A stretch of 64,000 nt of DNA from an uncultured Acidobacteriaceae bacterium (GTDB lineage: Bacteria > Acidobacteriota > Terriglobia > Terriglobales > Acidobacteriaceae), in NCBI GenBank assembly GCA_963708335.1, contig OY970205.1, positions 1,756,676 through 1,820,675 of the forward strand. Reading direction: 5' to 3'. Below are positions 32,216 to 54,668 of this stretch, in pieces. Within the stretch, counting starts at the first letter, position 1; each line of letters begins with the position of its first letter. A program made the translations under genes and the position numbers. The notes under the pieces were generated by a model. The model was not told the DNA's origin, did no database searches, and saw only the letters and a list, made by a program, of their open reading frames with translations.

Positions 32216-32592
32216 TGGAGGCATCGCTTTTTTCCAATCACTGCCGAATCATTGCGTGCCCTTTCGGAAAACTAAAGTACTAGAACTTCTGGATTTCGAA
32301 ACGCAGTATTCCGAAAACAGGGACAGCACGGCCTTCTGTCAGAGGTTAATTTCTCAACACGTGCTACGAAACGGAAAAAGTGCCCAGGCAACTCGTAGTT
32401 CTTACATTGGCTCTTACCAGGCAATGCGCGCGAGAGAAATCGGACGATGAACTAGTCGACGCTTAAATAGGTACATGGGTAACTTTCGACGGGGCGTCCA
32501 AGTGGTTAGCATCAATGGAAAGGCAATTGCTTTACACGTCGTACTCTTCTACCGTTTTTTTTGTTGTAGTGACCACGTAAGGGGCTGGTCAA

Positions 32593-34548: not shown

Positions 34549-34613
34549 AGTCGGGCCTTCCAGAGACGCGGGGGCGACAGCCGGTCAGGTAGACCAGCGA
34601 GAGTCAACAACAC

Positions 34614-37948: not shown

Positions 37949-38898
37949 GCGCGAACGCCACCGCCACCGCACGTATAGTCGCCGGCGCCAAAACCGGCCC
38001 GGACTCCGAGCGCGGGCATAAGCTCCGCCTCCGCGCCTTGTACATGCTTGCTTTTGCCACGAACCTCGCGATCTTTATCTACGGCTTCGACTACTACAAA
38101 CTGTCGGCCATCGATCGTCCCTTTTCACCGAAGCATCACATGCTCCGCCCCAGCGGCCCGATTGGGCTGTATCTGGGATTCATGGGCGTAGCTTTGTTCG
38201 CTGGCATCTTCCTCTATCCGCTCCGCAAGCACTGGGCGTGGCTGGGGACGAAAGGCAGCACCCGGCATTGGCTCGATATTCATGTGCTGATGGGGCTGAC
38301 CGCGCCGTTCATCATTGCGTTTCACTCCACCCTGAAGTTCAAAGGCATTGCGGGAATGGCTTTCTGGATCATGTTCGCGGTGTCAGCCAGCGGAGTTGTA
38401 GGACGCTATCTCTATGCGCAAATTCCGCGCAAGATGAGCACCGCCGAACTGTCAATGCGGGAAGTCCAGGAGTTGCAAGAAACATTGTCGCAGCAGCTTG
38501 CGGCACAAAACCTTCTTCCTGCGGCCGACTTGCGCGCATTGCTGCGGATGCCGGATGCGAAGATGGTGACGCGCCTTCCCATCGTCGTCGCTTTGGTCTA
38601 TATGATGATTCTCGATGTGGTCCGCGTTTTCCGCGTCGCGCGGTTGCGTCGTCATGCACTCAGTTTCGGCGGGTACATGCAAACCTTGGCGGGATTCCTG
38701 CCTACACGCAATCGTGAGATCGAGAAAGCCATTCATGCGGCGGCGGAAGAAGCCGCGCTTTCCAAGAGAATCCTGTTCCTCTCGCGCTCGCAGAAAGTTT
38801 TTCACCTCTGGCACGTCGTGCATAAGCCGTTCAGCTACGCCTTCGCCGTGCTGGCGCTATTGCACATCGCACTGCAATTTGTTCTGGGATATTTCTGA
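37945..38898 (+). CDS. integral membrane protein with two His-x13-His helix pairs (candidate dihaem b-type electron carrier)
   Basis: The start overlaps the upstream stop (ATGA). About 6 TM. HVLMGLTAPFIIAFH and HKPFSYAFAVLALLH each place two His 14 residues apart inside predicted helices. Confidence 0.5.
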   Translation: MSANATATARIVAGAKTGPDSERGHKLRLRALYMLAFATNLAIFIYGFDYYKLSAIDRPFSPKHHMLRPSGPIGLYLGFMGVALFAGIFLYPLRKHWAWLGTKGSTRHWLDIHVLMGLTAPFIIAFHSTLKFKGIAGMAFWIMFAVSASGVVGRYLYAQIPRKMSTAELSMREVQELQETLSQQLAAQNLLPAADLRALLRMPDAKMVTRLPIVVALVYMMILDVVRVFRVARLRRHALSFGGYMQTLAGFLPTRNREIEKAIHAAAEEAALSKRILFLSRSQKVFHLWHVVHKPFSYAFAVLALLHIALQFVLGYF

Positions 38899-38907
38899 TT
38901 CGACTCC

Positions 38908-40299
38908 ATGGAAACCCTTATCACTTACGGCGTCGGCGGCCTCATTTGCCTCTTCTTTTTAGTCGGCTATCTGAAGCGTCTGAAGAAGGCCGAAGCCCGC
39001 GCCCGCGAGGCCGCCGAAAAAGGCAAGCTCTTTTCCGAAGGACCGAAGGCCCAGCATCCTCATATCGATTCGAACTATTGCATCGGCTGCGGAACCTGCA
39101 CTAGCGTCTGCCCCGAAGGTGACGTACTGGCGATGATTGCGGGCAAGGCGGTCATTGTGAATGGCCACAAGTGCATCGGTCATGGCCTGTGCGCGGATGC
39201 GTGCCCCGTCGGCGCGATCACGATGGTGATGGCCAGCCCGAGCATGGCCGCCGACATGCCCCATCTCACGCCGGAGTACGAGACCACCATCCCGAACCTT
39301 TTTATTGTCGGCGAACTCGGCGGGCTGGCTCTGATCAAGAACGCCGTGAATCAGGGACGCGACTGCGTTGACACGATTGCCGCGCGCCTCAAGACAAGAT
39401 CTGCCCAGGCCATCCCTGGCGTTTACGACGTCTTAATCGTTGGCGCGGGGCCGGCCGGCATCAGCGCGTCGCTGCGCGCCATAGAAAGCAAACTCAATTA
39501 CATCACGCTCGAGCGCGACGAAGTTGGCGGCACGGTCGCCAAGTATCCGCGACAAAAACTCGTGATGACGAGCCCCGTCGAATTTCCCATGTACGGCAAG
39601 TTCAAGAAGTTGCAGCTTTCCAAAGAACACCTGCTGGCCTTCTGGGACATGATTCTGAACCGCGCTGATTTCAATGTGTCGACCGGCGAGAAGGTTGAGG
39701 ACATCACGAAGGACGACAAGGGCATCTTCACGGTCATCTCCGCGACCAATCAGTATCGTGCGCGGTCGGTCATTCTCGGGCTTGGCCGGGCCGGAGAGCC
39801 ACGCAAGCTCGGCGTTAAAGGCGAGCAACTGCCCAAAGTGATGTACCGCTTGATCGAGGCAGATCACTACATCAACAAAAAGATTCTTGTCGTCGGGGGC
39901 GGCGACAGCGCGGTCGAAGCCGCTCTCGGACTCGCCAACCAGACCGGAAACCAGGTGACGCTCTCGTACCGCAGCGAGCGCTTTAGCCGCATCAAGGAAC
40001 GGAATGCCAATCGCGTCGAAGAGTGCATGCGCTCAGGAAAAGTCCGTGTGTTGTTTAATTCCAATCCGGTTGAATTCAAACCCGAATCAGTATCGATCGA
40101 CGTGAACGGCGCCAGACAAGAAATTCCCAATGATTTTGTCTGGATCTTCGCGGGAGGAAATCCACCCACAGCCTTCCTTAAAAAGATCGGCATAGGTTTC
40201 GGAGCTCGCGACCTGACCCTCGAGGCCAGCAGAGAAGCGAAGCAGGCCAATGAAGACCGCAAGCAATTCGCCCAGGCACATGCTGCGCCGGCTCGCTGA
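38908..40299 (+). CDS. membrane-anchored 2x[4Fe-4S] ferredoxin-domain + FAD/NAD(P)-binding oxidoreductase
   Basis: N-terminal TM helix followed by Lys/Arg-rich sequence. CIGCGTCTSVCP and CIGHGLCADACP. DVLIVGAGPAGISA (FAD). ILVVGGGDSAVEAA (NAD(P)). Confidence 0.75.
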   Translation: METLITYGVGGLICLFFLVGYLKRLKKAEARAREAAEKGKLFSEGPKAQHPHIDSNYCIGCGTCTSVCPEGDVLAMIAGKAVIVNGHKCIGHGLCADACPVGAITMVMASPSMAADMPHLTPEYETTIPNLFIVGELGGLALIKNAVNQGRDCVDTIAARLKTRSAQAIPGVYDVLIVGAGPAGISASLRAIESKLNYITLERDEVGGTVAKYPRQKLVMTSPVEFPMYGKFKKLQLSKEHLLAFWDMILNRADFNVSTGEKVEDITKDDKGIFTVISATNQYRARSVILGLGRAGEPRKLGVKGEQLPKVMYRLIEADHYINKKILVVGGGDSAVEAALGLANQTGNQVTLSYRSERFSRIKERNANRVEECMRSGKVRVLFNSNPVEFKPESVSIDVNGARQEIPNDFVWIFAGGNPPTAFLKKIGIGFGARDLTLEASREAKQANEDRKQFAQAHAAPAR

Positions 40300-40754: not shown

Positions 40755-41501
40755 CTAGTTCTCCGCATAGACCGGCCCGGCCTGGCGAGAGGGTGGATCG
40801 GCGACAGCGCGGATATAGGAAATCAGCGCCTGTACATCAGACTTGCTGAGCGTGTTTCCCCAGGCCGGCATGAGGGCCGATTTGTTGAGGGCCGGACCTC
40901 CATAGCTGATGATCGCGGTGAGGTCGGCGTCGCTGATTTTGTTCAGCGTATCTCCTTCGGTGAAGGGGTGAGGCTTGACCTCGAGGTTGTCATAGTTGGA
41001 GACGCGCTCGACCGTAGACTCGGGATTGTGGCAGCGTTCGCAGTATTGATCGTTGAGTCGGCGTCCGAGGGTTTGCTGATAGCCGAGTGCGATCTCTTCT
41101 ATCTTTAATTCCACCTTTCTGTGGGACTTGTCGATCGTCGAGGCGACGAGTTGGTAACGGCCCGCCATGCCTCCGAGAGATACATTGGTCGTGACTTGGC
41201 CGCTGGAGTCGGTAAGCCCGCTGGCGGGATCGAACGTTACCCCGGGGATCGCTGCGAATTCGACTAGAGCTCCGGATACGGCAGCTCCCTGCTCGTCGTT
41301 TACCTGGACTACGACTGGTTGCGGCAACCAGGCGCCGGTCTGCGCGAACTGTTTTCCGCCGCTGGATTCGATGATCGCGGCGCCGAAAGCCGTGGGCTTG
41401 GGCAGAGGTGCGGACTCGGTCTTACGCGAACAGGAAATAGCCAGCGATGTTGCCAGCACCGCGACAACGAAGGTACCGATTGTATGGAAGTGGCGCGTCA
41501 T
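40755..41501 (-). CDS. lipoprotein with Ig-like domain and C-terminal monohaem cytochrome c domain
   Basis: Lipobox-like LAISC. Single CERCH with a distal Met region (ALMPAWG). The start overlaps the upstream stop (ATGA). Confidence 0.7.
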   Translation of the reverse strand: MTRHFHTIGTFVVAVLATSLAISCSRKTESAPLPKPTAFGAAIIESSGGKQFAQTGAWLPQPVVVQVNDEQGAAVSGALVEFAAIPGVTFDPASGLTDSSGQVTTNVSLGGMAGRYQLVASTIDKSHRKVELKIEEIALGYQQTLGRRLNDQYCERCHNPESTVERVSNYDNLEVKPHPFTEGDTLNKISDADLTAIISYGGPALNKSALMPAWGNTLSKSDVQALISYIRAVADPPSRQAGPVYAEN

Positions 41502-43543
41502 TTCTTGGCGACCTCCGGTTTGGCTCCGCCTTTTTGCGAGATCAGAAATGCGGTCAGAGCGCGCGCATCGTCGTCAGTCATGGCGCGGTTCGGCTCCACG
41601 GTACCCGGGCGCAGAGCCTGCGGATTTTTCATCCACTGGTAGATCCAGGCGGCGGTAAGGCGCGAGCCAACCTGCGTCAGCGTGGGGCCGATGTAGCCCT
41701 TGTCTGTCTTGGTGTCGAGGATGTGGCATCCCTGGCAGGAATACTTGCCATAGAACAGTTGCTTCCCGAGTTCCACCTCGCCTTGGGAGTAGCCGCTCAA
41801 CGGCATGGAGTCGCGATCAACTGACGGATTCTGATACACGGTCATGATGTAGTCGGTGAGTTCGTTGATTTCGGAATCGGTCAGGTTGAAGCGTGGCATG
41901 CGGCGAATCAGCGCCGGACGCAGCGTTCCTGGATTCTTGAAAAACTGCACCAGCCACTCGCGCTGGACGGAACTGCCTTCCCAGGTCAGGTCCGGCGCCA
42001 TGTCGCCACCGCGCCCGTTGATGCGATGGCAACTGAAGCAGGCTAAGTCAGACATCAGTTTCCCGGCTTTGCCGGCAGGCTGGTAATCCGACTCGGGGAC
42101 TGCGGCAACAGCCAGGGATGCTGGCAAAGTAGTCGAACGCTCGTTCAGAGCCAGCAACGCTGTGGTCAGTGCATCGATCTGCGTCGGCGTGAAGCTGTAT
42201 TGCGGCATTCGCAGGTTCGGCGAAAATGCCCGTGGTTCTTTGATTTTGCCCGCAAGGTAATCGGGAAGGGTGTGCGGCATCCCGGGCAGAAAAATGAGCT
42301 GGGTAATCGACTTGCTGCCAATGCGGCTGAGTTCCGGAGCGAAGTTTTCCGGCTTCTTGATTCCGGCGATTTCGTGGCAGGAGGCGCAGCCATAGTCCGA
42401 TACGAGGCGCTTGCCGTGCGCGATCTGCTCGGGAGTAGCCGCATCCAAGTGAACGTTGGCAAGGAGATCGGAATCCGCCTTCGCGAGAAGGAATCCGGAT
42501 AAGGTCGCGACCTGCGGATCGTTGAAGCGATAGTGCGGCATCGCCGTGCCGGGATCGTATACGCGCGGATTTTTCAGCCAGCCTTGCAGCCACTCCGGCT
42601 TCACTTTGCTGCCAATGCGCGTCAGTTCCGGACCAACATCACCACCAACCACGTTCCCCGCCGCATTCTGCACAGCGTGGCACGAGGCGCAAAAGGATTC
42701 ACCATAAAGGCTGGGGCCGGCAGTAGGATCAGCGGCGGGCTTGCCGGAGAGACTGGCAGAGTCTCCCGGCACGGCCGTGCTATTGGCGACCAGGAAAGCG
42801 GAGATGTCGCGCGCATCGTCGTCACTCAACTTGAAATTCGGCATCGTGGCGCTGACCGCATAGGCTCGCGGATCTTTCAGCCACGCGTAAATCCACTCTC
42901 GCGTGGTCTTGTCGGCAATGTGCGAAAGAGAGGGCGCATCGTCACTGGCTTTGAGCGTGCTGCCATCGGGCAGTTTCACCGTATGACAGTTGACACAACC
43001 GTAGCGAGAGAGCAGGTTGCGTCCCTGATTGAGAACAGGAGTTCCTGGCAACGGACCGCGGTGGCATTCCCCACAGGAAGACTCGATGTATTTGGCCGGA
43101 AGAATGGGCTGCTCCCAGGCGAGCGTACTGTTATGCGCTTCAGATACGGTAGTCGCAGCGCCCTGCCCGCGATGACACACGGTGCAGCCGAACTGGTCGA
43201 GCTTGTGCGGAATCACGGGATGAGTGCGGAAGGGTTGGGTAGAAACATCGGTAAGACTGGGTTCCTTCAGTCCGACGTGGCAACTGGTGCAGCGGTCCAC
43301 GACTCCAAGTTCTGGAAGCCAGATCTGCTGAATCCCTGGCTTGAAGTGCCTCTGCAGGGTGTTGGCCTCGCTGCGGTTGCGAATCGTCTTCAGATACCCG
43401 TGCTGATAGTGGCGCCACTCGCTGAAAAAGTTCTTCGCGGGAGCGATCGCCAGCGATGCGAGAAAAATGACGCTGATCACACCGAAGGCGCGCACGCTGT
43501 CGCCGAATAACTTATGCCATATCGATGTGAATTTCTGTCTCAT
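41498..43543 (-). CDS. membrane-anchored octahaem cytochrome c (4 N-terminal haems + 4 class-I-like domains)
   Basis: TM helix FGVISVIFLASLAIAP. 8 CxxCH (CTSCH, CTVCH, CGECH, CVNCH, CASCH x2, CFSCH, CQGCH). ATG 43543 is preferred over GTG 43606, which would overlap the upstream gene by 44 nt. Confidence 0.8.
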   Translation of the reverse strand: MRQKFTSIWHKLFGDSVRAFGVISVIFLASLAIAPAKNFFSEWRHYQHGYLKTIRNRSEANTLQRHFKPGIQQIWLPELGVVDRCTSCHVGLKEPSLTDVSTQPFRTHPVIPHKLDQFGCTVCHRGQGAATTVSEAHNSTLAWEQPILPAKYIESSCGECHRGPLPGTPVLNQGRNLLSRYGCVNCHTVKLPDGSTLKASDDAPSLSHIADKTTREWIYAWLKDPRAYAVSATMPNFKLSDDDARDISAFLVANSTAVPGDSASLSGKPAADPTAGPSLYGESFCASCHAVQNAAGNVVGGDVGPELTRIGSKVKPEWLQGWLKNPRVYDPGTAMPHYRFNDPQVATLSGFLLAKADSDLLANVHLDAATPEQIAHGKRLVSDYGCASCHEIAGIKKPENFAPELSRIGSKSITQLIFLPGMPHTLPDYLAGKIKEPRAFSPNLRMPQYSFTPTQIDALTTALLALNERSTTLPASLAVAAVPESDYQPAGKAGKLMSDLACFSCHRINGRGGDMAPDLTWEGSSVQREWLVQFFKNPGTLRPALIRRMPRFNLTDSEINELTDYIMTVYQNPSVDRDSMPLSGYSQGEVELGKQLFYGKYSCQGCHILDTKTDKGYIGPTLTQVGSRLTAAWIYQWMKNPQALRPGTVEPNRAMTDDDARALTAFLISQKGGAKPEVAKK

Positions 43544-43562
43544 GTCTGCTGCATCCTTGTCC

Positions 43563-44270
43563 TTAAGACCCCTGCCACGGCCATATCCACGACCAACCCG
43601 GACCACGGAAAAATGTGCCGATGGCAGTAAGCACGATGAGTTCGAATAAAAACCAGGTCATCACCCAATACGAAAGCGGTCGCGCGACCAGATACCGCCG
43701 GAAGCCTGAAATCGATTGGGGAGAGCTATACGCTGCAACAAGCATCACCGCGCCCATGATCACAGTCGGAACTAGGGCCGCGTAGACTTTGAAAAAAAGC
43801 AGGAATAGTGAAAGAAGAATCGCCACGCCATAGAAAATGCGCAGGCGGCGCTGGCGGTCTTTCAGGAATAGTCCATCGGCCTCGATATTGACTTTGAAGT
43901 AAGGAATGACAATCAACGCCATGACGACAAGTCCGGGCGCAAGCACGCCCGCAACCACCGGCGGAAAATAATGCAGCATCTCCTGCAGGCCGAGAAAGTA
44001 CCACGGCGCTTTTGCGGGATTCGGCGTGTGCGAAGGGTCAGCCAGGCCTTCGAGCGGAGCGTTAAAGATCAGCGCAATCCAAACCAGGGCGACGGCCAGC
44101 GTCATCACCGCAACCGCCGCGCGGAATAGCACCTCGGGAAAAGTCTGGACCTGGTCTTCGGTCTCGGCCTTCACCTGCGCCGAGGTGCGCCGCGTGACGA
44201 AGACAATCCGTCGCGGAGATTTCTTCGCGTTCGAGTCGATGCCGGCGATGAAGTCCTTGGACTCTGCCAT
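43563..44270 (-). CDS. cytochrome b C-terminal (subunit IV-like) membrane protein
   Basis: PNPAKAPWYFLGLQEMLHYFP (PEWY-type Qo-site motif region). Multiple TM helices. The start overlaps the cytochrome b stop (TAATG). Confidence 0.7.
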   Translation of the reverse strand: MAESKDFIAGIDSNAKKSPRRIVFVTRRTSAQVKAETEDQVQTFPEVLFRAAVAVMTLAVALVWIALIFNAPLEGLADPSHTPNPAKAPWYFLGLQEMLHYFPPVVAGVLAPGLVVMALIVIPYFKVNIEADGLFLKDRQRRLRIFYGVAILLSLFLLFFKVYAALVPTVIMGAVMLVAAYSSPQSISGFRRYLVARPLSYWVMTWFLFELIVLTAIGTFFRGPGWSWIWPWQGS

Positions 44271-45058
44271 TACTGCGCTCCCTTCTCATTTCGTGCGGCA
44301 GCTTCGGCTCGCACGACGGCAGGTTCGCTCGCATGCGAGTACAGTCCACCATCTTTGCGAATCCGCCAGAAATGGATGGCGACGAAGAACAATGCAGCGA
44401 GCGGAAGGATCATGCAGTGCAGCACGTAGAAACGCAGCAGCGCGTTGGCGTTGACCGCGTTTCCACCCAGCAGGAGAAAGTGGATCTTTTCGCCCATCAC
44501 TGGAACCGCCGATGCAATGTTCGATCCCACCGTAATTGCCCAATACGCCAGTTGATCCCAGGGAAGCAGGTAGCCGGTGTAGCTGAGCAGCAGAGTAATG
44601 AGAAGCAGGACAACTCCGATCACCCAATTGAATTCGCGAGGCGGCCGGTATGCGCCGCGGTAGAACACCTTGAACATGTGCGCGAACACCAGAAACACCA
44701 TGGCGTGCGCGGACCAGCGATGCAGGTTGCGTAGAAATAATCCAGAGGAGACTACGAACTGCAGGTCTTTCGTGTCGGCGTAAGCCTGCGGTACCGACGG
44801 GTGATAGTAGAACATCAGCGGAATCCCGGTCGCGACCAGGATGAGAAATGTGCCGAGCGTCAGCGTGCCCAGATACCAGGTCGCGCTGAAACTCAGCATG
44901 CGCGTGCGCACCTTGGTGGAAAACAGATGCAGGAACACATTCTGCTGAATGGCCAGGGAGCGCTTTAGAGTGCTCGAACCGACGCCGCTGCGGAAGATCG
45001 AGCGCCACACTCGTGTTTCGCGCAGATCGTTGAAGTATTGGTCTGCTGTTTTCGCCAT
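44270..45058 (-). CDS. cytochrome b (b6-type N-terminal four-helix haem domain)
   Basis: [15 protein letters not shown] (His-x13-His) and [16 protein letters not shown] (His-x14-His). WFRSIH-like N-terminus. LPWDQLAYW. Confidence 0.85.
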
Positions 45059-45060
45059 GC

Positions 45061-45558
45061 TTAAACCCTCACGAACTGCATAGGCGGGATGTCGGTGGAA
45101 CGGTCCACCAGCAAGTCTCCGTCGTCATTGAGCCACATGCGCTTCCACGGCAGCGGCTTGGGCGCGGGACCCTCGATTTTGTCGCCTGGTTTGTGATTGC
45201 CCTGCTGCTGAACGTAGAACTTGCTGCCGTGACAGGGGCACGCGATGATGCCCAATTCCGGCTTCCACGCTGTCAGGCAACCTAAATGCGTACACACCGC
45301 GCTGAGCGAGAAATACCCCTCCTGCGAGTGAATAATGAAAATGCCGGTGTTCGCATCAAGCGTGACGGAGTCAAGCGGATAGCGGTCGGGCTTTCCGGCG
45401 TTCACCACCGGAGACGGCTCAAAAAGTACATTCGGCTCGAGGTATTGATACGCGAACGCCGCCGTGCCGGCGGCGGCAATGCTTAACGAGCCGAGCCCGA
45501 GTTTCAGAAAGAATTGACGGCGGTTGACATCGTCAGTCGGTTTTGGTTCCTCTGCCAT
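45061..45558 (-). CDS. Rieske [2Fe-2S] protein with Tat signal
   Basis: [13 protein letters not shown] twin-Arg leader. CTHLGC ... CPCHGS. Confidence 0.9.
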
Positions 45559-45570
45559 ATTGCCTCGCGC

Positions 45571-47526
45571 CTACTTCTGCAATCCCGCGCCGATGGATGC
45601 CACCGAAATCAATCCGGTCGGCTCCGCCGGGATCAGGTTGTATGACTCCATAGTGATGGTGCCCACGGGACAGCGCATGGCGCACAGTCCGCAGCGAATG
45701 CACCGGGTCTCGTCCTTCAGCATGGCCGCGCCCGTAACCACTCCCAGTTCGTCGGCTTTAATTTCATCGAACTCCACGCCGAATAATTCCTGATTGTCGC
45801 GGATGTGCTGCACAGTCTCTGGCTCGAACGAAATCCGATCGAGCGAAACCAGTTCCAGACATTTTTCCGGGCAGACATCTACGCATCCACCGCACAGAAT
45901 GCACATGCTGCCGTCTTCCGGAACGCCTTCAAAAATTGTGTTGACCCAGCAGCGCAGGCAGCGCTGTGCCTCAGCCACGGCGCTGGCCGCGTCATACCCG
46001 ATTTCAACTTCGGTAACGCCTGTGCGCCGCTCGAGCGGAAGCATGGGAACCGGTTGACGGTTGAGGTCGAGGTAGCCGAGTGGCATGGAATGCCGTTTGA
46101 GTAGTTCGACTTCGATTACCGGTTCCGGATGCTTCCCTCCGCGGAGGTATTCATCGATGCCCACCGCCGCACGCTTGCCGTCGCCGACGCTGTCAATAAT
46201 CAGGCGCGGTCCAAACACACAATCGCCTCCGGCGAAAATTCCCGGCGCGGACGTCATCAAAGTCTGGGGATTCACGGCGATAAGACCGCGCGGAGAGAGT
46301 TCCACCTTGTCTTCCGGCGTGAAGAAATCCAACCGCGGCGCCTGCCCGATCGCCATGATGATCGTGTCGCACTCGATCTGCGTCTCGCTGTTTTCGTAAA
46401 ACGCCGGATTGAAGCGCTTGTTCTGGTCAAAGACCCACTTGGTCTTGAGAGTTTCGAGAGCTGTGACCTTGCCGTCTTTGCCCAAAATCCTCTTCGGCCC
46501 TTGCCCCGGAAGCATCTTGATGCCCTCTTCTTCGGCCTCGACGATCTCTTCGAGGGCGGCGGGCATTTCATCGCGCCGCTCCAGGCAGACCAGGTTCACC
46601 TCGCGCGCTCCCATGCGCAAAGCCGAGAGCGAGATGTCAACCATTTCCCTCGTAGCCACGGCGGAGACATTGTCCGCGGAGGGCTCCAATTCCTCCACGC
46701 CGCCGGCATGTTGCCTGACCACTTCGCGTGCCGCCGAGCGCGCCACATCCATGGCAACGTTGCCACCGCCGATCACGATGACTTTTTTCCCGATGGTGAA
46801 TTTGTAGCCCAGGTTCACGTTCAGCAGAAAATCGATGCCCTTGTGAACGCCGTCCAGATCGACTCCGGGAATGCTGAGATCGCGGCTGCGATGAGCGCCC
46901 ACCGCAACCAGTACCGCATCGAATCCCTCGTGTCGCAGATCCGAGATGCTGAAGTCCCGTCCGGCGGCATGATTCAACTTGAGGGTGATGTCCCCGGTTT
47001 CGAGAATCTCGCGGACTTGCGCCTCCACTACGTCGCGCGGCAGGCGATATTCCGGAATCCCCAGATAAAGCATTCCTCCGGCAACCGGAGCTGCTTCGAA
47101 GATCGTCACCGCGTAACCCATCAAGGCGAGATCATGAGCCGCCGAAAGTCCAACCGGGCCACCGCCCACTACCGCAACTTTGTAAGGAAGTTTCTTCTGC
47201 GTGCGTCCTTCATTGACGTTGATGGGACGCTTCGACTCGGGGCCGTACTGCTCGGTAAGAAAGCGTTTCAGCGCTCGGATCGAGATGGGACGGTCGATTT
47301 CGCCGCGGCGGCAGGCGGTCTCACAGGGATGCGCACACACGCGTCCGCAGATACTAGCCAGCGGATTCGGATCACGTGCCAGGCGATAGGCTTCTTCGAA
47401 GCGTCCCTCCGCAATCAGGCCCACGTACCGCCCGGCGTTGGTGTGAGCCGGGCAGGCCATCATGCAGGGAAAGTTTGTGTGCAGCCAGTCCCCGTCAACC
47501 TTCTTGTCTTTGAATCGCTTCAGCAT
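45571..47526 (-). CDS. GltD-like (glutamate synthase small-subunit-type) NAD(P)H/FAD oxidoreductase with N-terminal Fe-S Cys clusters and C-terminal 2x[4Fe-4S] ferredoxin domain
   Basis: FPCMMACPAH ... CGRVCAHPCETAC. VAVVGGGPVGLSAAHDL. VIVIGGGNVAMDVA. CILCGGCVDVCP and CIRCGLCAMRCP. ATG 47526 is preferred over the 47637 start. Confidence 0.8.
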   Translation of the reverse strand: MLKRFKDKKVDGDWLHTNFPCMMACPAHTNAGRYVGLIAEGRFEEAYRLARDPNPLASICGRVCAHPCETACRRGEIDRPISIRALKRFLTEQYGPESKRPINVNEGRTQKKLPYKVAVVGGGPVGLSAAHDLALMGYAVTIFEAAPVAGGMLYLGIPEYRLPRDVVEAQVREILETGDITLKLNHAAGRDFSISDLRHEGFDAVLVAVGAHRSRDLSIPGVDLDGVHKGIDFLLNVNLGYKFTIGKKVIVIGGGNVAMDVARSAAREVVRQHAGGVEELEPSADNVSAVATREMVDISLSALRMGAREVNLVCLERRDEMPAALEEIVEAEEEGIKMLPGQGPKRILGKDGKVTALETLKTKWVFDQNKRFNPAFYENSETQIECDTIIMAIGQAPRLDFFTPEDKVELSPRGLIAVNPQTLMTSAPGIFAGGDCVFGPRLIIDSVGDGKRAAVGIDEYLRGGKHPEPVIEVELLKRHSMPLGYLDLNRQPVPMLPLERRTGVTEVEIGYDAASAVAEAQRCLRCWVNTIFEGVPEDGSMCILCGGCVDVCPEKCLELVSLDRISFEPETVQHIRDNQELFGVEFDEIKADELGVVTGAAMLKDETRCIRCGLCAMRCPVGTITMESYNLIPAEPTGLISVASIGAGLQK

Positions 47527-47653
47527 GCACGGCGTTTCCAATCTCGAAACAGCGGCTGAACGTCCACCTCGGTTTGCAGTACAAGAGCGATACGGATTCG
47601 AGGAGCAGTGCCCCAAGCGCAACTGCTCCCCTGTCACCCCGGACGAGATGCAG

Positions 47654-48235
47654 TTACTTCGTCAGGGTGAAATCCGCTTTCCCGCCGCCGGCTACGGTGA
47701 CGGGCTTCGACTGGTTCTTCGCCCCTTCGTGCCAGACGGTCAGCGTGTAACTTCCGTCGGGAACGTCTTTGATCTTGTAGTTGCCGCTGTCGTCGGTCTC
47801 GGCAAAATAAGGAGTTGGACTGACAATCAGATATCCCGCCATGTCTGGGTGCACATTGCACAGCAGCGGCACAACTCCCGGTTTGTCGAAGGTAAAAGGA
47901 CGCTTTTCACCCTTGGGCCACGTGCCCAGGTTGTGTCCGGCTTTCTTGTCGTTGCCGATCGCCGTCCAAAAAACATTGTGTTGCACCGTGTCGCTATTGA
48001 GGAACTCAACCGTCGTACCCTGTTGCACGACCATGATGTGCGGCACAAACATCAGCCCCTTTTGATCGATCACCGGATGATCTTTGGGTGCGGGAAAAGT
48101 TTTGCCCGCGATCGTGTCCACGTAAACCACGGAGCGGCCCTTCATTCCCGCAACCTTGCCCTCGATGTCGCCGGCGAAAGCCGCGCTGCACAACCCAACG
48201 ATCAAAGCCATCATTACCAATATCTTGCCTTTCAT
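47654..48235 (-). CDS. secreted cupredoxin-like (type-1 copper) protein with C-terminal CarboxypepD_reg-like domain
   Basis: Signal peptide. FVPHIMVVQQGTTVEFLNSDTVQHNV ... LLCNVHPDMAGYLIV. This gives a His ... Cys-x2-His-x2-Met ligand pattern as in amicyanin. The C-terminal GNYKIKDVPDGSYTLTVW is CarboxypepD_reg-like. Confidence 0.65.
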   Translation of the reverse strand: MKGKILVMMALIVGLCSAAFAGDIEGKVAGMKGRSVVYVDTIAGKTFPAPKDHPVIDQKGLMFVPHIMVVQQGTTVEFLNSDTVQHNVFWTAIGNDKKAGHNLGTWPKGEKRPFTFDKPGVVPLLCNVHPDMAGYLIVSPTPYFAETDDSGNYKIKDVPDGSYTLTVWHEGAKNQSKPVTVAGGGKADFTLTK

Positions 48236-48309
48236 TGCGTTATCTCCTTATGAGTTGTCACCAACCGTTGCTGCGTGTGTGTCAGGACATGTTTGTCAGA
48301 ACATGTGTG

Positions 48310-49695
48310 TCAAAAAATGATCTTTGCATCCAGGTAGAAGGTGTTGTTCGAGCTCGCATTGCGGCCAGAACCGTCGTAGTTGTTTTGGGCTCCATTGAAG
48401 CGTGTGTATCCGGTGTATTGCGCAGCGAGCAGCAGATTCTGCCACGGCCAATAGGTAAAGTTCGCAATATAGCCGCTGCCCCTCGGGTCGCCATTGAAGT
48501 TGCCGGTCACTGCGACATTGGGCGAATACAGAGTCGTGTCGGAAGTGCCGGTCGTGCTGAACCACCCGAATGTTCCGGTGTAGCGGTTGCCATAGTGGTA
48601 TTCGGCGTTGGCCATCACAGTGTTCAAATGATGCGCTCCCAACCCCGCCAATTGCGGATTGCCATTGAAGCTCGCTAACAAGTCGGAATTTTCGCGGATG
48701 TACGTGGCTCGAAAAGACAGCACATCCTTTCTGAACAGTGTCCGATCGATCTGAGTGTCAACTCCCCAATCCGTGTACGAATCCTGCCAGGGGAAACTAG
48801 ACCCGTCGGCTTGCGTAATTGCGTTGGGAGTGGATCGCAGGTGCATTCCATAGGTGCCAACTTCATACTGTGTCTTGGCCGTTAGCTGCTGCCATGCCGC
48901 GCGCCAGTACGGCGCAACGCCGCGAATGTTGGTTCCCCCCCCGGGATTCGGTTGAGGGCTCCCCACGTGCTGGGAACGATAAATCGCGGCATCAAAATAA
49001 AGATGGTTGTTCCACATGGCGTACGCGCCTACACCTCCCACATCCTGCGCCAATCCGCCATTGATGATGGGAGAGGCGTTCGGCGTGGGCGCGAAATCGC
49101 TGGCGACCCAGGGATAGCCCCAGGCCGGGGTGCTGTTCCAAAGGTCCTCGACGGTGGGATTGTTGTTGAAATCCAGACCGTAGACCAATTCCTTGCCGCC
49201 CAGCTTCGTCGTGTTCGCGTAGCGGACATCGGTGTTGTCCATGCTGAAGTGGTCATCCTGCGTGTCGTATGTGACCTGAACGAAACTTCCCACATGGCTG
49301 GTCCAGGCACCTGAAAGGAACAGCGAGATATCCTGGGGAAACTCGACATTGCCGTTCTGGGTCGTCGGCTCCGGCGACTTGATAGAGGTGAAGGAAGCGT
49401 CCAGCATCACTGAAAGCGGCAATGAACCCAAAAGCTCCAGCGCAGCCGTCTTTTTGCTTCCATCAGCCTTGATGACTTTTGTGTCATCCGCCTTGTCCAC
49501 GTAGCCCATCAGCTTGAACCTTCGTCCGGCAGGATTGAGTTCCGGAGGAGTGTAGTGACAGCCGCTGCAGGCTAATCCCGTCTGCCGGGCATAGCTGGGA
49601 ACCGCCTCCACCTTAGGTGGATTCAGGGCGACAACAAACAGCAATGCCAGGATCGAAGCGGACATGACCAGAACAATCGCGACTTTTTTCATCAT
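48310..49695 (-). CDS. fused monohaem cytochrome c / outer-membrane beta-barrel protein (Cyc2-like architecture)
   Basis: Signal peptide. Single CSGCH near the N-terminus (YARQTGLACSGCHYTPPELNPAGRRF). About 400 aa of barrel-like sequence ending ...FYLDAKIIF. Confidence 0.6.
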   Translation of the reverse strand: MMKKVAIVLVMSASILALLFVVALNPPKVEAVPSYARQTGLACSGCHYTPPELNPAGRRFKLMGYVDKADDTKVIKADGSKKTAALELLGSLPLSVMLDASFTSIKSPEPTTQNGNVEFPQDISLFLSGAWTSHVGSFVQVTYDTQDDHFSMDNTDVRYANTTKLGGKELVYGLDFNNNPTVEDLWNSTPAWGYPWVASDFAPTPNASPIINGGLAQDVGGVGAYAMWNNHLYFDAAIYRSQHVGSPQPNPGGGTNIRGVAPYWRAAWQQLTAKTQYEVGTYGMHLRSTPNAITQADGSSFPWQDSYTDWGVDTQIDRTLFRKDVLSFRATYIRENSDLLASFNGNPQLAGLGAHHLNTVMANAEYHYGNRYTGTFGWFSTTGTSDTTLYSPNVAVTGNFNGDPRGSGYIANFTYWPWQNLLLAAQYTGYTRFNGAQNNYDGSGRNASSNNTFYLDAKIIF

Positions 49696-49908
49696 GAATC
49701 TCCTGTTTATTTGCTGACTCTCTGTTCTTCGGGAGAAATGTCAGGAGTCTGCACCGCGTGCCGTTCACGATTCATCGAGCAAACATAGCCATGCGAAAGC
49801 GCATTCGAATCGCCTCCCACGTATAGATTTCGAGAGTTTGGAAAACCCTAGTCTTGATCCAAGCTGAGCGTGATAATACCGGCAGTTGTAGACGTCTCGC
49901 GAGGTGTT

Positions 49909-49939
49909 GAATCACATCCGAATGTGATTTGCATCACAC
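49909..49939. promoter_or_regulatory. composite CRP/FNR-family-like operator, copy 1
   Basis: GAATCACATCCGAATGTGATTTGCATCACAC contains TCACA-N6-TGTGA overlapping a perfect TGTGA-N6-TCACA. Lies 214-244 nt upstream of the 49695 start. Confidence 0.4.
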
Positions 49940-50061
49940 TTCGGGTCGTGACGGCGGAGTGGCTCGGATCACCGCATTCGTCATAAAGATCTAGTTTTGG
50001 GGCCTCTTGAGTTCATCTGGACTGGATGCTGCCCAACTGCCACAGAAATCGAAGTGGCGGA

Positions 50062-50092
50062 GAATCACACCGGAATGTGATTAAGCTCACGC
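50062..50092. promoter_or_regulatory. composite CRP/FNR-family-like operator, copy 2
   Basis: GAATCACACCGGAATGTGATTAAGCTCACGC, identical to copy 1 at 24/31 positions, with TGTGA-N6-TCACG. Lies 153 bp from copy 1. Confidence 0.4.
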
Positions 50093-50522
50093 TGCTGGGT
50101 CAGTCATGAGGTTCGGGGGCATTGCTGCAGTTTCCACCTAATTGATTCCTGATAAACGGAACGCCATTTTACCGGGCTGCAAATACTGAAGTCATAGCAC
50201 CCGATGCTTTCCATGCGAGGGAAGCCCGCTTGCCTCGCCCGACTATCTTCCCATCCCCGTCCAACGCTTCCGCTTCGACCGGCCAAGCGTAATACATTGG
50301 AGCCACGCCGCGGTTCTCCATGCGCACGGTGAGTGTGGCCGAGCCATCTGTGTTTCGAACTATTCCATCGCTCGCAGAAGAGTATATAGCCCAACATTCG
50401 CTCGGCATTCAGGGCATTCATTCGCTGTTTGGCGGCGAGCGGTGCAGCAAAGAGATTTGAGTCGAGCAGCCAAGTCGCGTGCGTCGTAATAATCGCGGCA
50501 GTCGCGTCTTGCCCTGGCGGTA

Positions 50523-54553: not shown

Positions 54554-54668
54554 GCTCCCATTCCTCCAACGATTTTCTGGATTCCCGAACTCTAATCAAC
54601 TTCCAGCGTGACGCGCATGAGTTCACACTCCTGCGAATATGCGAGCAGTTACGGAACGATGCCTCGCT

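What the first reader, a model, noticed from the sequence alone, without database searches (positions are those of the whole stretch)
40755..49695. Eight-gene operon joins a Cyc2-like cytochrome-porin and a cupredoxin to a Rieske/cytochrome b complex carrying its own NAD(P)H-type Fe-S flavoprotein
Seen: eight co-directional, tightly packed genes. Junctions are ATGA at 41498-41501, TAATG at 44268-44272, and gaps of 2-127 nt. In transcription order they are:
- a signal peptide + single CSGCH + barrel-like protein;
- a type-1-copper-like protein (HNV...CNVHPDM);
- a GltD-like FAD/NAD(P) protein with extra Fe-S motifs;
- a Tat-Rieske protein;
- a split b6-type cytochrome b;
- a membrane-anchored 8-haem cytochrome;
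- a monohaem lipoprotein cytochrome.

Known: cytochrome-porin (Cyc2), cupredoxin and a bc complex form the outer-membrane-to-quinone and uphill-to-NAD route of Fe(II) oxidisers such as Acidithiobacillus. Rieske/cyt b complexes with an added GltD-like subunit have been pointed out in anammox genomes and proposed, not shown, to reduce NAD(P)+.

Inferred: one transcription unit packages an outer-membrane electron entry or exit point, periplasmic carriers and a quinone- and NAD(P)-linked membrane complex. I know of no description of such a compact extracellular-electron/NAD(P)H pathway in Acidobacteriota. The direction of electron flow cannot be read from the sequence.
Basis: partly seen in the sequence, partly recalled or inferred. 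Interest (0 to 1): 0.85.

Follow-up and report, generated by a model that had tools for sequence, protein, structure and literature searches.

The report
Iron-porin cytochrome wired to NAD(P)-linked Rieske complex
A soil acidobacterium (Candidatus Sulfotelmatobacter-like) carries a widely conserved gene cluster that joins an outer-membrane Cyc2-type iron cytochrome-porin and a blue-copper protein to an anammox-type Rieske/cytochrome b complex with its own NAD(P)-binding iron-sulfur flavoprotein, which suggests an unstudied route between extracellular iron, the quinone pool and NAD(P)H in very abundant soil bacteria.

Summary
Eight co-directional minus-strand genes lie at 40755-49695 with the stated junctions. 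g1 meets every published sequence and fold criterion for a Cyc2 fused cytochrome-porin: signal peptide, AVPSYARQT-x3-CSGCH-x3-PEL, 461 aa, and a confident 16-strand barrel. g2 is a type-1 copper cupredoxin whose four ligands are invariant in 55 homologues. g3-g7 form a Rieske/b6/subunit-IV/octahaem complex. Its Rieske protein matches best the two Kuenenia Rieske proteins from NAD(P)-reductase-bearing complexes. Its flavoprotein matches best NfnABC (9bov/9bp5). The linkage is not chance. Where flank was available, flavoprotein-centred metagenome loci had the Rieske-to-monohaem genes downstream (45/45), the cupredoxin upstream (73/73) and a Cyc2-type gene upstream (49/51), in two non-orthologous forms. 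Other genomes have a permuted order with Cyc2 last. A Binatia genome carries a version without the cupredoxin. The parts are known kinds; their union is not described in the papers I could search. Electron direction is not settled. I favour menaquinol oxidation with export to soluble Fe(III) and an NAD(P)-linked low-potential branch. A conserved hairpin after g2 means a single transcript is unproven. Verdict: new variant of a known kind; interest 0.65.

The parts
49911..50081 (.). Two perfect 18-bp palindromes ATCACA-N6-TGTGAT (49911-49928 and 50064-50081), 232 and 385 nt upstream of the g1 start. Candidate operator sites.
   Evidence: 3 window matches at up to 1 mismatch (these two are exact) against 0.1 expected. 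TCACA-N6-TGTGA with up to 1 mismatch lies within 600 nt upstream of the operon in 19 of 31 same-order loci; the background is 0.03 per 600 nt.
48310..49695 (-). g1: Cyc2-type fused monohaem cytochrome-porin (461 aa).
   Evidence: AVPSYARQT-GLA-CSGCH-YTP-PEL fits the Cyc2 consensus given in PMC8406198. AF2 model has pLDDT 91.8 and 16 long strands. Foldseek top hits are 16-strand porins, including OprP and OprO. The family spans 2479 clusters at 50% identity.
47654..48235 (-). g2: secreted type-1 copper cupredoxin fused to a CarboxypepD_reg-like beta-sandwich (193 aa).
   Evidence: PF00127 scores 28.3 bits against a cutoff of 21.2. His86, Cys126, His129 and Met132 are invariant in 55 homologues encoded next to Cyc2-type genes. 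Nearest solved relatives are the cupredoxin domain of a NirK, amicyanin and plastocyanin.
47594..47639 (-). GC-rich hairpin 14 nt after the g2 stop codon, in the 127-nt g2-g3 gap. Possibly a leaky terminator or an mRNA-stabilising element.
   Evidence: dG is -24 kcal/mol here. A comparable hairpin (-16 to -37 kcal/mol) occurs in 27 of 27 loci with a gap of at least 80 nt, and 13 of them have a T-rich tail. The whole 127-nt gap is not unusually stable (z = -0.23).
45571..47526 (-). g3: cytoplasmic NfnB/GltD-like FAD/NAD(P) protein with two N-terminal [4Fe-4S] sites and a C-terminal 2x[4Fe-4S] ferredoxin domain (651 aa).
   Evidence: Pfam Fer4_20, Pyr_redox_2 and Fer4. NF009410 scores 462 bits, below its cutoff of 516. 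Best PDB matches are 9bov/9bp5 at 1.6e-92, then NfnB and GltD. No TM segment. It always lies directly upstream of the Rieske gene.
45061..45558 (-). g4: Tat-exported Rieske [2Fe-2S] protein (165 aa).
   Evidence: PF00355. Best PDB hits are 9rk4 (Kuste4569, 7.4e-21) and 9rk3 (Kustd1480, 6.3e-15), ahead of b6f Rieske proteins. Box II reads CPCHGSKF, the Ser/Phe pair seen in Kustd1480.
44270..45058 (-). g5: four-helix cytochrome b6-type subunit with an N-terminal extension carrying conserved His44 (262 aa).
   Evidence: PF00033 at 3.6e-45. Best PDB matches are cytochromes b6 at 3.7e-47. NCBIfam ExtP scores 259 bits, below its cutoff of 290. His44 is conserved in the g5 orthologues whose N-terminus was recovered, including 52-62%-identical ones (one, L046, is cut by a contig end), and is absent from the alternative bc-type complexes. 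There is no Cys at the haem-cn CxGG position.
43563..44270 (-). g6: subunit-IV-like membrane subunit with about four hydrophobic segments (235 aa).
   Evidence: PF00032 scores 22.9 bits against a cutoff of 20.7. The ExtQ match is weak. Hydrophobic segments.
41498..43543 (-). g7: membrane-anchored octahaem cytochrome c (681 aa). Four closely spaced N-terminal CXXCH are followed by four class-I cytochrome c domains.
   Evidence: Eight CXXCH and one N-terminal TM segment. Pfam Cytochrom_C x5, Cytochrome_CBB3 and C7/c3-like hits. No close solved structure.
40755..41501 (-). g8: probable lipoprotein with a Big_1 Ig-like domain and a monohaem class-I cytochrome c (248 aa).
   Evidence: LAISC lipobox-like motif and one CXXCH. 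PF13442 and PF02369.

Best explanation
The cluster encodes one electron path across the whole cell envelope of a Terriglobia (Candidatus Sulfotelmatobacter-like) acidobacterium.

Composition, shown by sequence, fold and synteny:
- a Cyc2-type outer-membrane porin with one haem (g1);
- periplasmic high-potential carriers: a type-1 copper cupredoxin (g2) and a lipoprotein monohaem cytochrome (g8);
- an inner-membrane Rieske/cytochrome b6/subunit-IV complex whose cytochrome c subunit is an anchored octahaem protein (g4-g7);
- a cytoplasmic NfnB/GltD-like FAD, NAD(P) and 4x[4Fe-4S] protein (g3).

Inferred by homology with the Kuenenia complexes: g3 docks on the cytoplasmic face of cytochrome b6. 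An extra b haem held by His44 of the b6 dimer may bridge the two.

Mechanism I favour (inference, not shown). Menaquinol is oxidised at the Qo site. One electron runs downhill through the predicted high-potential Rieske cluster, the c haems and the cupredoxin or monohaem cytochrome to the Cyc2 haem. From there it reaches a soluble high-potential oxidant outside the cell, most plausibly Fe(III) or organically complexed Fe(III) in acidic soil or peat. The second electron takes the low-potential b-haem route. That route is coupled to NAD(P) through the Fe-S flavoprotein. It either reduces NAD(P)+ (bifurcation, as proposed for anammox), or NAD(P)H feeds electrons into the b haems and the Qi site.

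Because every carrier is reversible, the same hardware could run inward when Fe(II) is the donor.
For: Parts.
- g1 meets the Cyc2 motif, length and 16-strand barrel criteria.
- The g2 copper ligands are invariant.
- The g3 flavoprotein's best solved match, 9bov/9bp5, is an entry named as a structural homologue of Kuste4570.
- His44 of g5 is conserved only in this type of complex (a variant lacking the flavoprotein gene, L022, retains it). It corresponds in position to His43 of Kuste4571, which is modelled as the ligand of an extra haem b.

Linkage.
- In g3-centred loci, 45/45 have g4-g8, 73/73 have g2, and 49/51 have a Cyc2-type gene. The Cyc2 gene comes as two non-orthologous forms in the same position.
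- In 11 genomes Cyc2 has moved to the 3' end but stays in the cluster.
- 11 further genomes pair Cyc2 with a different, minimal Rieske/cytochrome bc operon.
- A Binatia MAG has Cyc2 + cytochrome c + flavoprotein + Rieske/cytochrome b + multihaem cytochrome.

Direction.
- None of the operons inspected encodes a terminal oxidase, so the Rieske/b complex is the only membrane partner of Cyc2.
- The Rieske box II Ser/Phe pair is the one found in Kustd1480, measured at +335 mV.
- Outward flow through bc1, carriers and Cyc2 to Fe(III) is the published model for anaerobic A. ferrooxidans.
- A g1 relative sits on a plasmid of Acidiphilium cryptum JF-5. That strain is an acidophilic Fe(III) reducer, which is my own knowledge and was not checked here.
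Against: - All three biochemically characterised Cyc2 proteins oxidise Fe(II). Sequence alone cannot give direction.
- Keffer et al. stress that the function of divergent Cyc2 clusters is uncertain.
- The FeGenie HMMs were not run, and no bona fide Cyc2 sequence was available for direct comparison.
- Nothing here shows that g3 binds the membrane complex. One natural variant, L022, lacks the gene.
- g5 lacks the CxGG haem-cn cysteine that Dibrova et al. report for the planctomycete-type subfamilies.
- A heterotroph has no obvious need to make NAD(P)H from menaquinol.
- The Rieske potential is inferred from two residues only.
- The hairpin after g2 may uncouple expression of g1-g2 from that of g3-g8.
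Confidence: 0.5

Rival explanations
1. Inward flow: an Fe(II)-oxidation module. Soluble Fe(II) is oxidised by Cyc2. Electrons pass to the cupredoxin and c-type cytochromes. A fraction is pushed uphill through the Rieske/b complex running in reverse, driven by proton-motive force, to menaquinone and NAD(P)+. This would be the functional equivalent of the Acidithiobacillus rus + petI system packed into one cluster. The bulk of the electrons would go to a terminal oxidase encoded elsewhere.
For: - Every Cyc2 tested biochemically is an Fe(II) oxidase.
- The A. ferrooxidans pathway uses Cyc2, a cupredoxin and a bc1 complex for uphill flow. Table 1 of PMC10654088 lists SdrA, an 'accessory NADH complex subunit', among the A. 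ferrooxidans Fe(II)-oxidation proteins; that its gene lies in the petI operon with bc1 is my own knowledge, not checked here.
- FeGenie surveys already score Acidobacteriota MAGs as putative Fe oxidisers.
- Proteobacterial relatives of g1 sit next to HiPIP and c-type cytochromes, which is typical Fe(II)-oxidiser wiring.
Against: - No oxidase gene is found in the operon variants inspected (window, L045, L079) or among the window ORFs annotated.
- A reversed Qo reaction consumes a low-potential electron rather than producing one. The flavoprotein would then oxidise NAD(P)H, not make it. This is an inference from the Q-cycle mechanism.
- A high-potential Rieske cluster working against menaquinone (about -70 mV) makes the uphill step about 370 mV (for the values).
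Confidence: 0.3
2. Cupredoxin hub. The Rieske/b6 complex simply uses the cupredoxin as its soluble acceptor, as plastocyanin serves b6f. Cyc2 is a side entry or vent for the same periplasmic pool. The cluster would then be an aerobic or microaerobic respiratory module, with iron only an auxiliary donor or acceptor.
For: - g2 belongs to the plastocyanin/amicyanin family, and g5 is most similar to b6.
- 15 genomes pair the Cyc2 gene with a cupredoxin of this family, without any Rieske/b genes nearby.
Against: - The hub model does not explain why Cyc2 stays in the cluster through gene-order permutation and non-orthologous replacement.
- It also does not explain why minimal operons contain only Cyc2 + cytochrome c + Rieske/bc.
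Confidence: 0.12
3. The flavoprotein is not a subunit. It is an independent cytoplasmic NAD(P)H:Fe-S oxidoreductase, for example GltD- or NfnB-like, that is merely co-transcribed. Alternatively, g1 is an ordinary porin with a vestigial haem site, so the 'pathway' is an annotation illusion.
For: - g3 scores below the cutoffs of all NCBIfam models.
- Some sources annotate close homologues as 'formate dehydrogenase beta subunit' or 'glutamate synthase beta subunit-like'.
- L022 lacks g3, and L134 and L153 lack Cyc2.
Against: - g3 lies 12 nt upstream of the Rieske gene here and directly precedes it in every relative examined, down to 44% identity and in another phylum.
- No glutamate synthase large subunit, NfnA or formate dehydrogenase catalytic gene is adjacent in the window.
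- The Cys-x-x-Cys-His and flanking motif residues of g1 are invariant across 74 diverse family members.
Confidence: 0.06

Closest known systems
Kuenenia stuttgartiensis Rieske/cytochrome b complexes Kuste4569-4574 and Kustd1480-1485 (Kartal et al. 2013; PMC12954380)
   Same: - A b6-type four-helix cytochrome b plus a subunit-IV-like protein.
- A hexa- or octahaem cytochrome c in place of cytochrome f.
- An NAD(P)/FAD/Fe-S oxidoreductase encoded in the operon.
- The window's Rieske protein is most similar to these two Rieske proteins.
- The flavoprotein shares the same closest solved homologue, 9bp5.
- An N-terminal His in b6 sits where the extra b haem is modelled.
- The Rieske box II residues, Ser/Phe, are the high-potential type.
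   Different: - No HAO-like octahaem partner and no anammoxosome.
- No CxGG haem-cn cysteine in b6.
- The cluster adds a Cyc2 porin-cytochrome, a cupredoxin and a Big_1 monohaem lipoprotein. These name an extracellular partner for the high-potential branch.
- The host is a soil acidobacterium that presumably uses menaquinone (own knowledge).
- Direct sequence comparison was possible only for the Rieske subunit.
Cyc2 fused cytochrome-porins (A. ferrooxidans Cyc2, Mariprofundus Cyc2PV-1, Leptospirillum Cyt572; Keffer et al. 2021, PMC8406198)
   Same: - Signal peptide, a single CXXCH near the N-terminus and the flanking AXPXFAR[Q/K][T/Y] and PXL motifs.
- About 450 aa and a 16-strand OprO/OprP-like barrel.
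- Neighbours are periplasmic high-potential carriers.
   Different: - Tyr replaces Phe in the motif.
- Cluster assignment (1, 2 or 3) was not determined.
- No activity data.
- It is linked to a b6-type Rieske complex, not to an oxidase operon as in the rus operon.
- Public records annotate it only as 'hypothetical protein'.
Acidithiobacillus ferrooxidans rus + petI/petII system
   Same: - The same logic of outer-membrane Cyc2, a periplasmic cupredoxin and c-type cytochromes, and a Rieske/cytochrome b complex.
- It is documented or proposed to run both inward (Fe(II) to NAD+) and outward (quinol to Fe(III)).
   Different: - There the genes are split over separate operons that include an aa3 oxidase.
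- The cupredoxin there is rusticyanin, and the complex is a ubiquinol bc1.
- NAD+ is reached through complex I, not through a dedicated flavoprotein.
Geobacter sulfurreducens ext cluster (ExtHIJKL conduit with ExtOPQS b-type cytochrome complex; NCBIfam NF040968-NF040971)
   Same: - The NCBIfam models define an ext ('selenite/tellurite reduction') operon with a b6-like cytochrome b complex and c-type cytochromes; that the same cluster also encodes the ExtHIJKL outer-membrane conduit is my own knowledge, not checked here.
- g5, g6 and g7 give their best or near-best NCBIfam hits to ExtP, ExtQ and ExtS.
   Different: - Scores are below cutoff for ExtP (259 against 290) and ExtQ (52 against 150). 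The ExtS match covers only part of g7.
- The Ext cluster has no Rieske protein, Cyc2, cupredoxin or NAD(P) flavoprotein.

Membership tests
Cyc2 fused cytochrome-porin (criteria of Keffer et al. 2021 / FeGenie) | N-terminal signal peptide | tested here: met
   Hydrophobic segment at residues 5-23 followed by ...PPKVEA|VPS. AF2 predicts a helix at residues 2-24. No dedicated signal-peptide predictor was available.
Cyc2 fused cytochrome-porin (criteria of Keffer et al. 2021 / FeGenie) | A single CXXCH, with AXPXFAR[Q/K][T/Y] upstream and PXL four residues downstream | tested here: met
   AVPSYARQT-GLA-CSGCH-YTP-PEL, with Tyr for Phe. Q38, C43, C46, H47 and L53 are invariant in 74 diverse family members.
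Cyc2 fused cytochrome-porin (criteria of Keffer et al. 2021 / FeGenie) | Length of at least 365-400 aa with a 16-strand beta-barrel porin similar to OprO/OprP | tested here: met
   461 aa. AF2 gives pLDDT 91.8, pTM 0.88 and 16 long strands. Foldseek returns 16-strand porins, with OprP 2o4v at TMq 0.50 and OprO 4rjw at 0.49.
Cyc2 fused cytochrome-porin (criteria of Keffer et al. 2021 / FeGenie) | Score above cutoff with a FeGenie Cyc2 cluster HMM | not testable with these tools
   The FeGenie HMMs are not in any library offered, and Pfam and NCBIfam have no Cyc2 model. Indirect support: g1 relatives at 30-39% identity occur in Burkholderiales and Acidiphilium, groups that PMC10654088 links to AfCyc2 in its similarity network.
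Cyc2 fused cytochrome-porin (criteria of Keffer et al. 2021 / FeGenie) | Fe(II) oxidation (or Fe(III) reduction) activity and outer-membrane location | not testable with these tools
   Requires biochemistry.
Anammox-type Rieske/cytochrome b complex with NAD(P) oxidoreductase | Split b6-type cytochrome b plus a subunit-IV-like protein | tested here: met
   For g5, PF00033 and the best PDB matches are cytochromes b6. For g6, PF00032.
Anammox-type Rieske/cytochrome b complex with NAD(P) oxidoreductase | Rieske subunit of the Kuste4569/Kustd1480 type | tested here: met
   The best two PDB hits are 9rk4 (7.4e-21) and 9rk3 (6.3e-15).
Anammox-type Rieske/cytochrome b complex with NAD(P) oxidoreductase | A multihaem (hexa- or octahaem) cytochrome c replaces cytochrome f or c1 | tested here: met
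   g7 has eight CXXCH and an N-terminal anchor. Its homology to Kuste4573 or Kustd1485 could not be tested because no sequence was available.
Anammox-type Rieske/cytochrome b complex with NAD(P) oxidoreductase | An NAD(P)/FAD/multi-[4Fe-4S] oxidoreductase is encoded inside the operon | tested here: met
   g3 domains. Best PDB match is 9bov/9bp5, an entry named as a structural homologue of Kuste4570. Synteny is conserved.
Anammox-type Rieske/cytochrome b complex with NAD(P) oxidoreductase | Conserved CxGG (haem cn) motif in cytochrome b, reported for subfamilies G and L | tested here: not met
   g5 reads TWYLGT at that position, and none of the orthologues has a Cys there. The criterion comes from PMC5600118.
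Anammox-type Rieske/cytochrome b complex with NAD(P) oxidoreductase | Physical association of the flavoprotein with the membrane complex, and NAD(P)H production | not testable with these tools
   Proposed but not demonstrated even for Kuenenia. No multimer modelling was available here.
Geobacter ExtOPQS b-type cytochrome complex | Scores above the NCBIfam equivalog cutoffs | tested here: not met
   ExtP 259 against 290, and ExtQ 52 against 150. ExtS 101 against 100, but over only part of g7.

The most novel reading that the evidence does not exclude
Abundant soil and peat Acidobacteriota operate an electron-bifurcating Rieske/cytochrome b complex. Its exergonic branch ends at an outer-membrane Cyc2 and reduces extracellular soluble Fe(III). 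Its endergonic branch reduces NAD(P)+ through the attached Fe-S flavoprotein. This would be the first case in which the long-hypothesised NAD(P)H-producing Rieske/b complex has a genetically specified high-potential partner. It would also mean that Cyc2, now used as a marker for Fe(II) oxidation, marks Fe(III) respiration in these bacteria.
Probability: 0.2. Interest if true: 0.85.

Novelty: new variant of a known kind. Interest (0 to 1): 0.65.

Why it matters
**Iron-cycle inference.** Terriglobia are among the most abundant soil bacteria. Cyc2 is widely used, for example in FeGenie, to infer Fe(II) oxidation from metagenomes. Here the Cyc2 gene is hard-wired to a quinol-oxidising complex rather than to an oxidase. 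That finding argues for caution in such inferences. It also points to an unrecognised iron-redox capacity in acid soils and peat.

**Scale.**
- The g1 family has more than 6000 clusters at 90% identity.
- More than 586 species-level genomes match one motif pattern.
- More than 517 metagenome contigs carry the flavoprotein.

**The anammox question.** The cluster gives a second, phylogenetically distant and far more widespread setting for the NAD(P)-linked Rieske/b complexes. Their function in anammox bacteria is still only proposed. In this setting the high-potential partner is encoded in the same cluster. Natural variants also exist: some lack the flavoprotein, some lack Cyc2, and some have a permuted gene order. 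Together these make the bifurcation hypothesis more directly testable.

Tried and rejected
- **Pfam and NCBIfam on g1:** no hits. Membership had to rest on the published motif and on the fold.
- **Source names for g1 relatives:** only 'hypothetical protein', apart from one fusion protein labelled 'cytochrome b561'.
- **Keffer et al. supplements:** no usable Cyc2 sequences and no Acidobacteria labels. Direct alignment to AfCyc2, Cyc2PV-1 or Cyt572 was therefore not possible, and the cluster (1, 2 or 3) is unassigned.
- **Sigma-54 promoter upstream of g1:** tried because sigma-54 regulators flank relatives L044 and L079. No conserved -24/-12 element was found.
- **Consensus sigma-70 and terminator scan:** uninformative, with counts near shuffle expectation.
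- **RNAalifold on the g2-g3 hairpin:** failed because MAFFT misaligned the variable loops. Per-sequence folding was used instead. The whole gap is not unusually stable.
- **Synteny of the multihaem cluster at 30182-40299 with the operon:** not conserved in any of the 80 g1-centred loci. I treat it as a neighbour, not a part.
- **Literature searches** for this operon in Terriglobia, Acidobacteriota or Sulfotelmatobacter: no description found. One search was too broad to be useful.
- **Geobacter Ext membership:** considered and rejected on scores.

Full report
**Observation**

Eight ORFs lie head to tail on the minus strand between 40755 and 49695.
- The gaps are 74, 127, 12, 2 and 19 nt.
- The cluster is bounded by an ~830-nt non-coding stretch upstream (49696-50522) and by a convergent gene downstream (38908-40299, + strand).
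- GC content is unremarkable, at 0.54-0.59.

Pfam and NCBIfam confirm seven of the eight identifications:
- g2: cupredoxin plus a CarboxypepD_reg domain.
- g3: Fer4_20 + Pyr_redox_2 + a C-terminal 2x[4Fe-4S] domain.
- g4: Rieske protein with an RRQFF Tat motif.
- g5: cytochrome b6 type.
- g6: subunit-IV type.
- g7: a cytochrome with eight CXXCH and one anchor helix.
- g8: a Big_1 + monohaem protein with a lipobox-like LAISC.
- g1 has no hit in either library.

**Is g1 a Cyc2?**

Keffer et al. (PMC8406198) define Cyc2 by five features:
- a signal peptide;
- a single CXXCH;
- an AXPXFAR[Q/K][T/Y] motif upstream of it;
- a PXL motif four residues downstream;
- a length above about 365-400 aa, with a 16-strand porin resembling OprO/OprP.

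They note that identity between Cyc2 clusters is only 17-30%. Membership therefore rests on the motif plus the barrel.

g1 reads AVPSYARQT-GLA-CSGCH-YTP-PEL. An exhaustive HMMER search found 2479 clusters at 50% identity with E <= 1e-3. In an alignment of 74 diverse members, Q38, C43, C46, H47, L53, G57 and F60 are invariant. AlphaFold2 on that alignment gave pLDDT 91.8 and pTM 0.88, with 16 long strands. Foldseek against the PDB returned 16-strand general porins. OprP (2o4v, TMq 0.50) and OprO (4rjw, 0.49) had the highest query-normalised TM-scores.

All testable criteria are therefore met. Two things could not be done. The FeGenie HMM score could not be computed, and no bona fide Cyc2 sequence was available for direct alignment.

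Relatives at 30-39% identity occur on replicons of Ralstonia, Caballeronia, Paraburkholderia and Acidiphilium cryptum JF-5. There they lie next to c-type cytochromes and a HiPIP. These are the taxa that PMC10654088 connects to AfCyc2. Public records call all close relatives 'hypothetical protein'. Several of those records are labelled Candidatus Sulfotelmatobacter, which belongs to Terriglobia.

**The cupredoxin**

His86, Cys126, His129 and Met132 (HNV...C-x2-H-x2-M) are invariant in 55 homologues found next to Cyc2-type genes. That set includes homologues only 30-37% identical. The nearest solved relatives are the cupredoxin domain of a NirK, amicyanin and plastocyanin.

**The Rieske/b complex is of the anammox type**

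- The best PDB matches of g4 are 9rk4 (7.4e-21) and 9rk3 (6.3e-15), ahead of cyanobacterial b6f Rieske proteins at about 5e-12.
- PMC12954380 identifies 9rk4 as Kuste4569 and 9rk3 as Kustd1480. These are the Rieske subunits of the two Kuenenia complexes that carry a putative NAD(P) oxidoreductase. Their measured potentials are +303 and +335 mV.
- g4 has the Ser/Phe pair of Kustd1480 in box II (CPCHGSKF).
- The best PDB match of g3 is 9bov/9bp5 (1.6e-92), followed by NfnB and GltD. 9bp5 is one of the two entries that paper names as structural homologues of Kuste4570.
- The same paper models an extra b haem at the b6 dimer interface, ligated by His43 of Kuste4571.
- g5 has His44 in an N-terminal extension. 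That His is conserved in the orthologues of this complex type whose N-terminus was recovered, including 52-62%-identical ones from L028, L052 and a Binatia MAG. It is absent from the alternative bc-type cytochromes b found next to other Cyc2 genes.
- One difference: g5 lacks the CxGG cysteine for haem cn. Dibrova et al. report that cysteine for the planctomycete-type subfamilies.
- Dibrova et al. also state that short cytochromes b co-occur with NAD(P)/Fe-S oxidoreductases 'in many other cases'. The Rieske/b-flavoprotein union is therefore not new.

**Linkage**

A genome scan with the g1 family pattern matched at least 586 species-level genomes. The best 80 are nearly all labelled Acidobacteriota. 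tblastn of all eight proteins against these 80 loci gave the following:

| Class of locus | Number |
|---|---|
| Same order, g1 to g8 | 29 |
| Permuted order, g2-g8 followed by g1 | 11 |
| g3 missing but otherwise intact (L022) | 1 |
| Contig ends just after g1-g2 (L021) | 1 |
| g1 followed by a different, minimal operon | 11 |
| g1 paired only with a distant cupredoxin | 15 (16 with L036, cut at a contig end) |
| Binatia variant (L079) | 1 |
| None of these neighbours, some on short contigs | 10 |

- The minimal operon consists of a monohaem cytochrome c, a Rieske protein and a cytochrome b-c fusion.
- The Binatia MAG has a sensor kinase and a sigma-54 regulator, then Cyc2, a BamE-like protein, a cytochrome c, the flavoprotein, a Rieske protein, a fused cytochrome b, a multihaem cytochrome and a cytochrome c.

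An independent sample centred on g3 used 80 metagenome contigs with at least 85% identity. Results are counted over the loci with enough flank:
- g4-g8 lie downstream in 45 of 45 loci.
- g2 lies upstream in 73 of 73 loci.
- A Cyc2-type gene lies upstream of g2 in 49 of 51 loci.
- In 39 of these it is the g1 type. In 10 it is a 539-aa paralogue with its own AIPAFSRQY...CATCH...PKL motif, which was first seen in L081.

Cyc2 is retained through gene-order permutation and through non-orthologous replacement. That is strong evidence for a functional tie between Cyc2, the cupredoxin and the complex.

**Regulation and transcription**

Two perfect ATCACA-N6-TGTGAT palindromes lie 232 and 385 nt upstream of g1. 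The motif recurs upstream of the cluster in 19 of 31 same-order loci, against a background of 0.03 per 600 nt. No conserved sigma-54 promoter was found.

A GC-rich hairpin begins 14 nt after the g2 stop codon (47594-47639, -24 kcal/mol). A comparable hairpin is present in all 27 loci with a long g2-g3 gap, and 13 of them have a T-rich tail. The eight genes may therefore be expressed as g1-g2 plus a read-through g3-g8 transcript. 'One transcription unit' is unproven.

**Mechanism**

*Shown:* the parts list and its conserved co-location.

*Inferred by homology:* g3 docks on the cytoplasmic face and exchanges electrons with the b haems.

*Direction is not readable from sequence.* I favour forward operation, for four reasons.
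- None of the operons inspected contains an oxidase, so the Rieske/b complex is Cyc2's only membrane partner.
- A Ser/Phe Rieske protein working against menaquinone reproduces the energetic scheme that makes NAD(P)+ reduction feasible in the anammox proposal. Menaquinone in Terriglobia is my own knowledge, at about -70 mV.
- A reversed Qo reaction would consume, not produce, low-potential electrons. This follows from the Q-cycle mechanism.
- Outward flow from bc1 through the carriers to Cyc2 and Fe(III) is the accepted model for anaerobic A. ferrooxidans.

Against this, all characterised Cyc2 proteins oxidise Fe(II). A heterotroph also has little need for quinol-driven NAD(P)H. So NAD(P)H might instead be an electron donor entering through the b haems and the Qi site. 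I put about 0.5 on outward flow, 0.3 on inward or uphill Fe(II) oxidation, and the rest on a cupredoxin-hub model or on non-association.

**Novelty**

- Cyc2 genes in Acidobacteriota MAGs have been counted by FeGenie-type surveys.
- PMC10654088 notes Acidobacteria homologues near Leptospirillum Cyc572.
- NAD(P)-linked Rieske/b complexes are known from anammox bacteria and are noted elsewhere.
- I found no paper that describes their union with Cyc2 and a cupredoxin, or its wide conservation in Terriglobia. The library searched is limited to open-access papers.

I rate this a new variant of a known kind, with interest 0.65.

Noticed in passing
window 30182-40299 (+ strand): A second putative electron-export cluster lies convergent with the operon. 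It encodes a 677-aa cytochrome with 23 CXXCH, a 651-aa cytochrome with 25 CXXCH (MtrC/c7-like domains), an 836-aa AMIN-domain protein, a 275-aa secreted protein, a 317-aa polytopic membrane protein (weak DUF4405 hit), and a membrane-anchored 2x[4Fe-4S] + FAD/NAD(P) reductase (YpdA/TrxB-like). None of its six genes was detected in any of the 80 g1-centred loci.
   Followed up: partly
window 49911-49928 and 50064-50081: Two perfect ATCACA-N6-TGTGAT palindromes lie upstream of g1. The half-sites are in the opposite order to a CRP site. The motif is conserved upstream of the cluster in 19 of 31 same-order relatives. The binding factor is unknown.
   Followed up: partly
window 47594-47639 (- strand): A conserved GC-rich hairpin follows the cupredoxin stop codon. 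It is present in 27 of 27 relatives with a long g2-g3 gap, and about half of those have a T-rich tail. It may be a leaky terminator that sets a higher Cyc2/cupredoxin to complex ratio.
   Followed up: partly
L022:10001-17000; L134; L153: Natural variants exist. L022 has Cyc2, the cupredoxin and the Rieske/b/octahaem/monohaem genes but no flavoprotein gene. L134 and L153 have the flavoprotein complex and the cupredoxin but no detectable Cyc2 gene nearby. These are useful comparators for function.
   Followed up: partly
L081:7620-9239 and loci L085, L088, L095, L139, L147, L154, L157, L160-L162: A 539-aa Cyc2-type paralogue (AIPAFSRQYGTSCATCHVDFPKL) occupies the first position of otherwise orthologous clusters. 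It gives only partial, roughly 30-43%-identical matches to g1. This is a non-orthologous replacement.
   Followed up: partly
L163 (Acidiphilium cryptum JF-5 plasmid pACRY03) and L164 (Caballeronia sp. SBC1 plasmid): Relatives of g1 at 31-36% identity are plasmid-borne in Proteobacteria. They lie next to a c-type cytochrome (Acidiphilium) or a HiPIP plus a c-type cytochrome (Caballeronia), and transposases are nearby.
   Followed up: partly
window 489-1667 (- strand): An IS481-family transposase (rve, LZ_Tnp_IS481) lies near the window start. Several PAS and MHYT histidine kinases lie at 4674-6143, 20303-21940 and 24142-25308.
   Followed up: no
window 52043-57110 (- strand): Glycogen phosphorylase (836 aa; identified from the sequence itself — no family search was run on it — and from a PF00343 gene in the matching position of L081) and phosphoketolase (XFP, 813 aa) lie upstream of the cluster. 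These flanking genes are not conserved next to the operon, even in the closest genome (L001).
   Followed up: no
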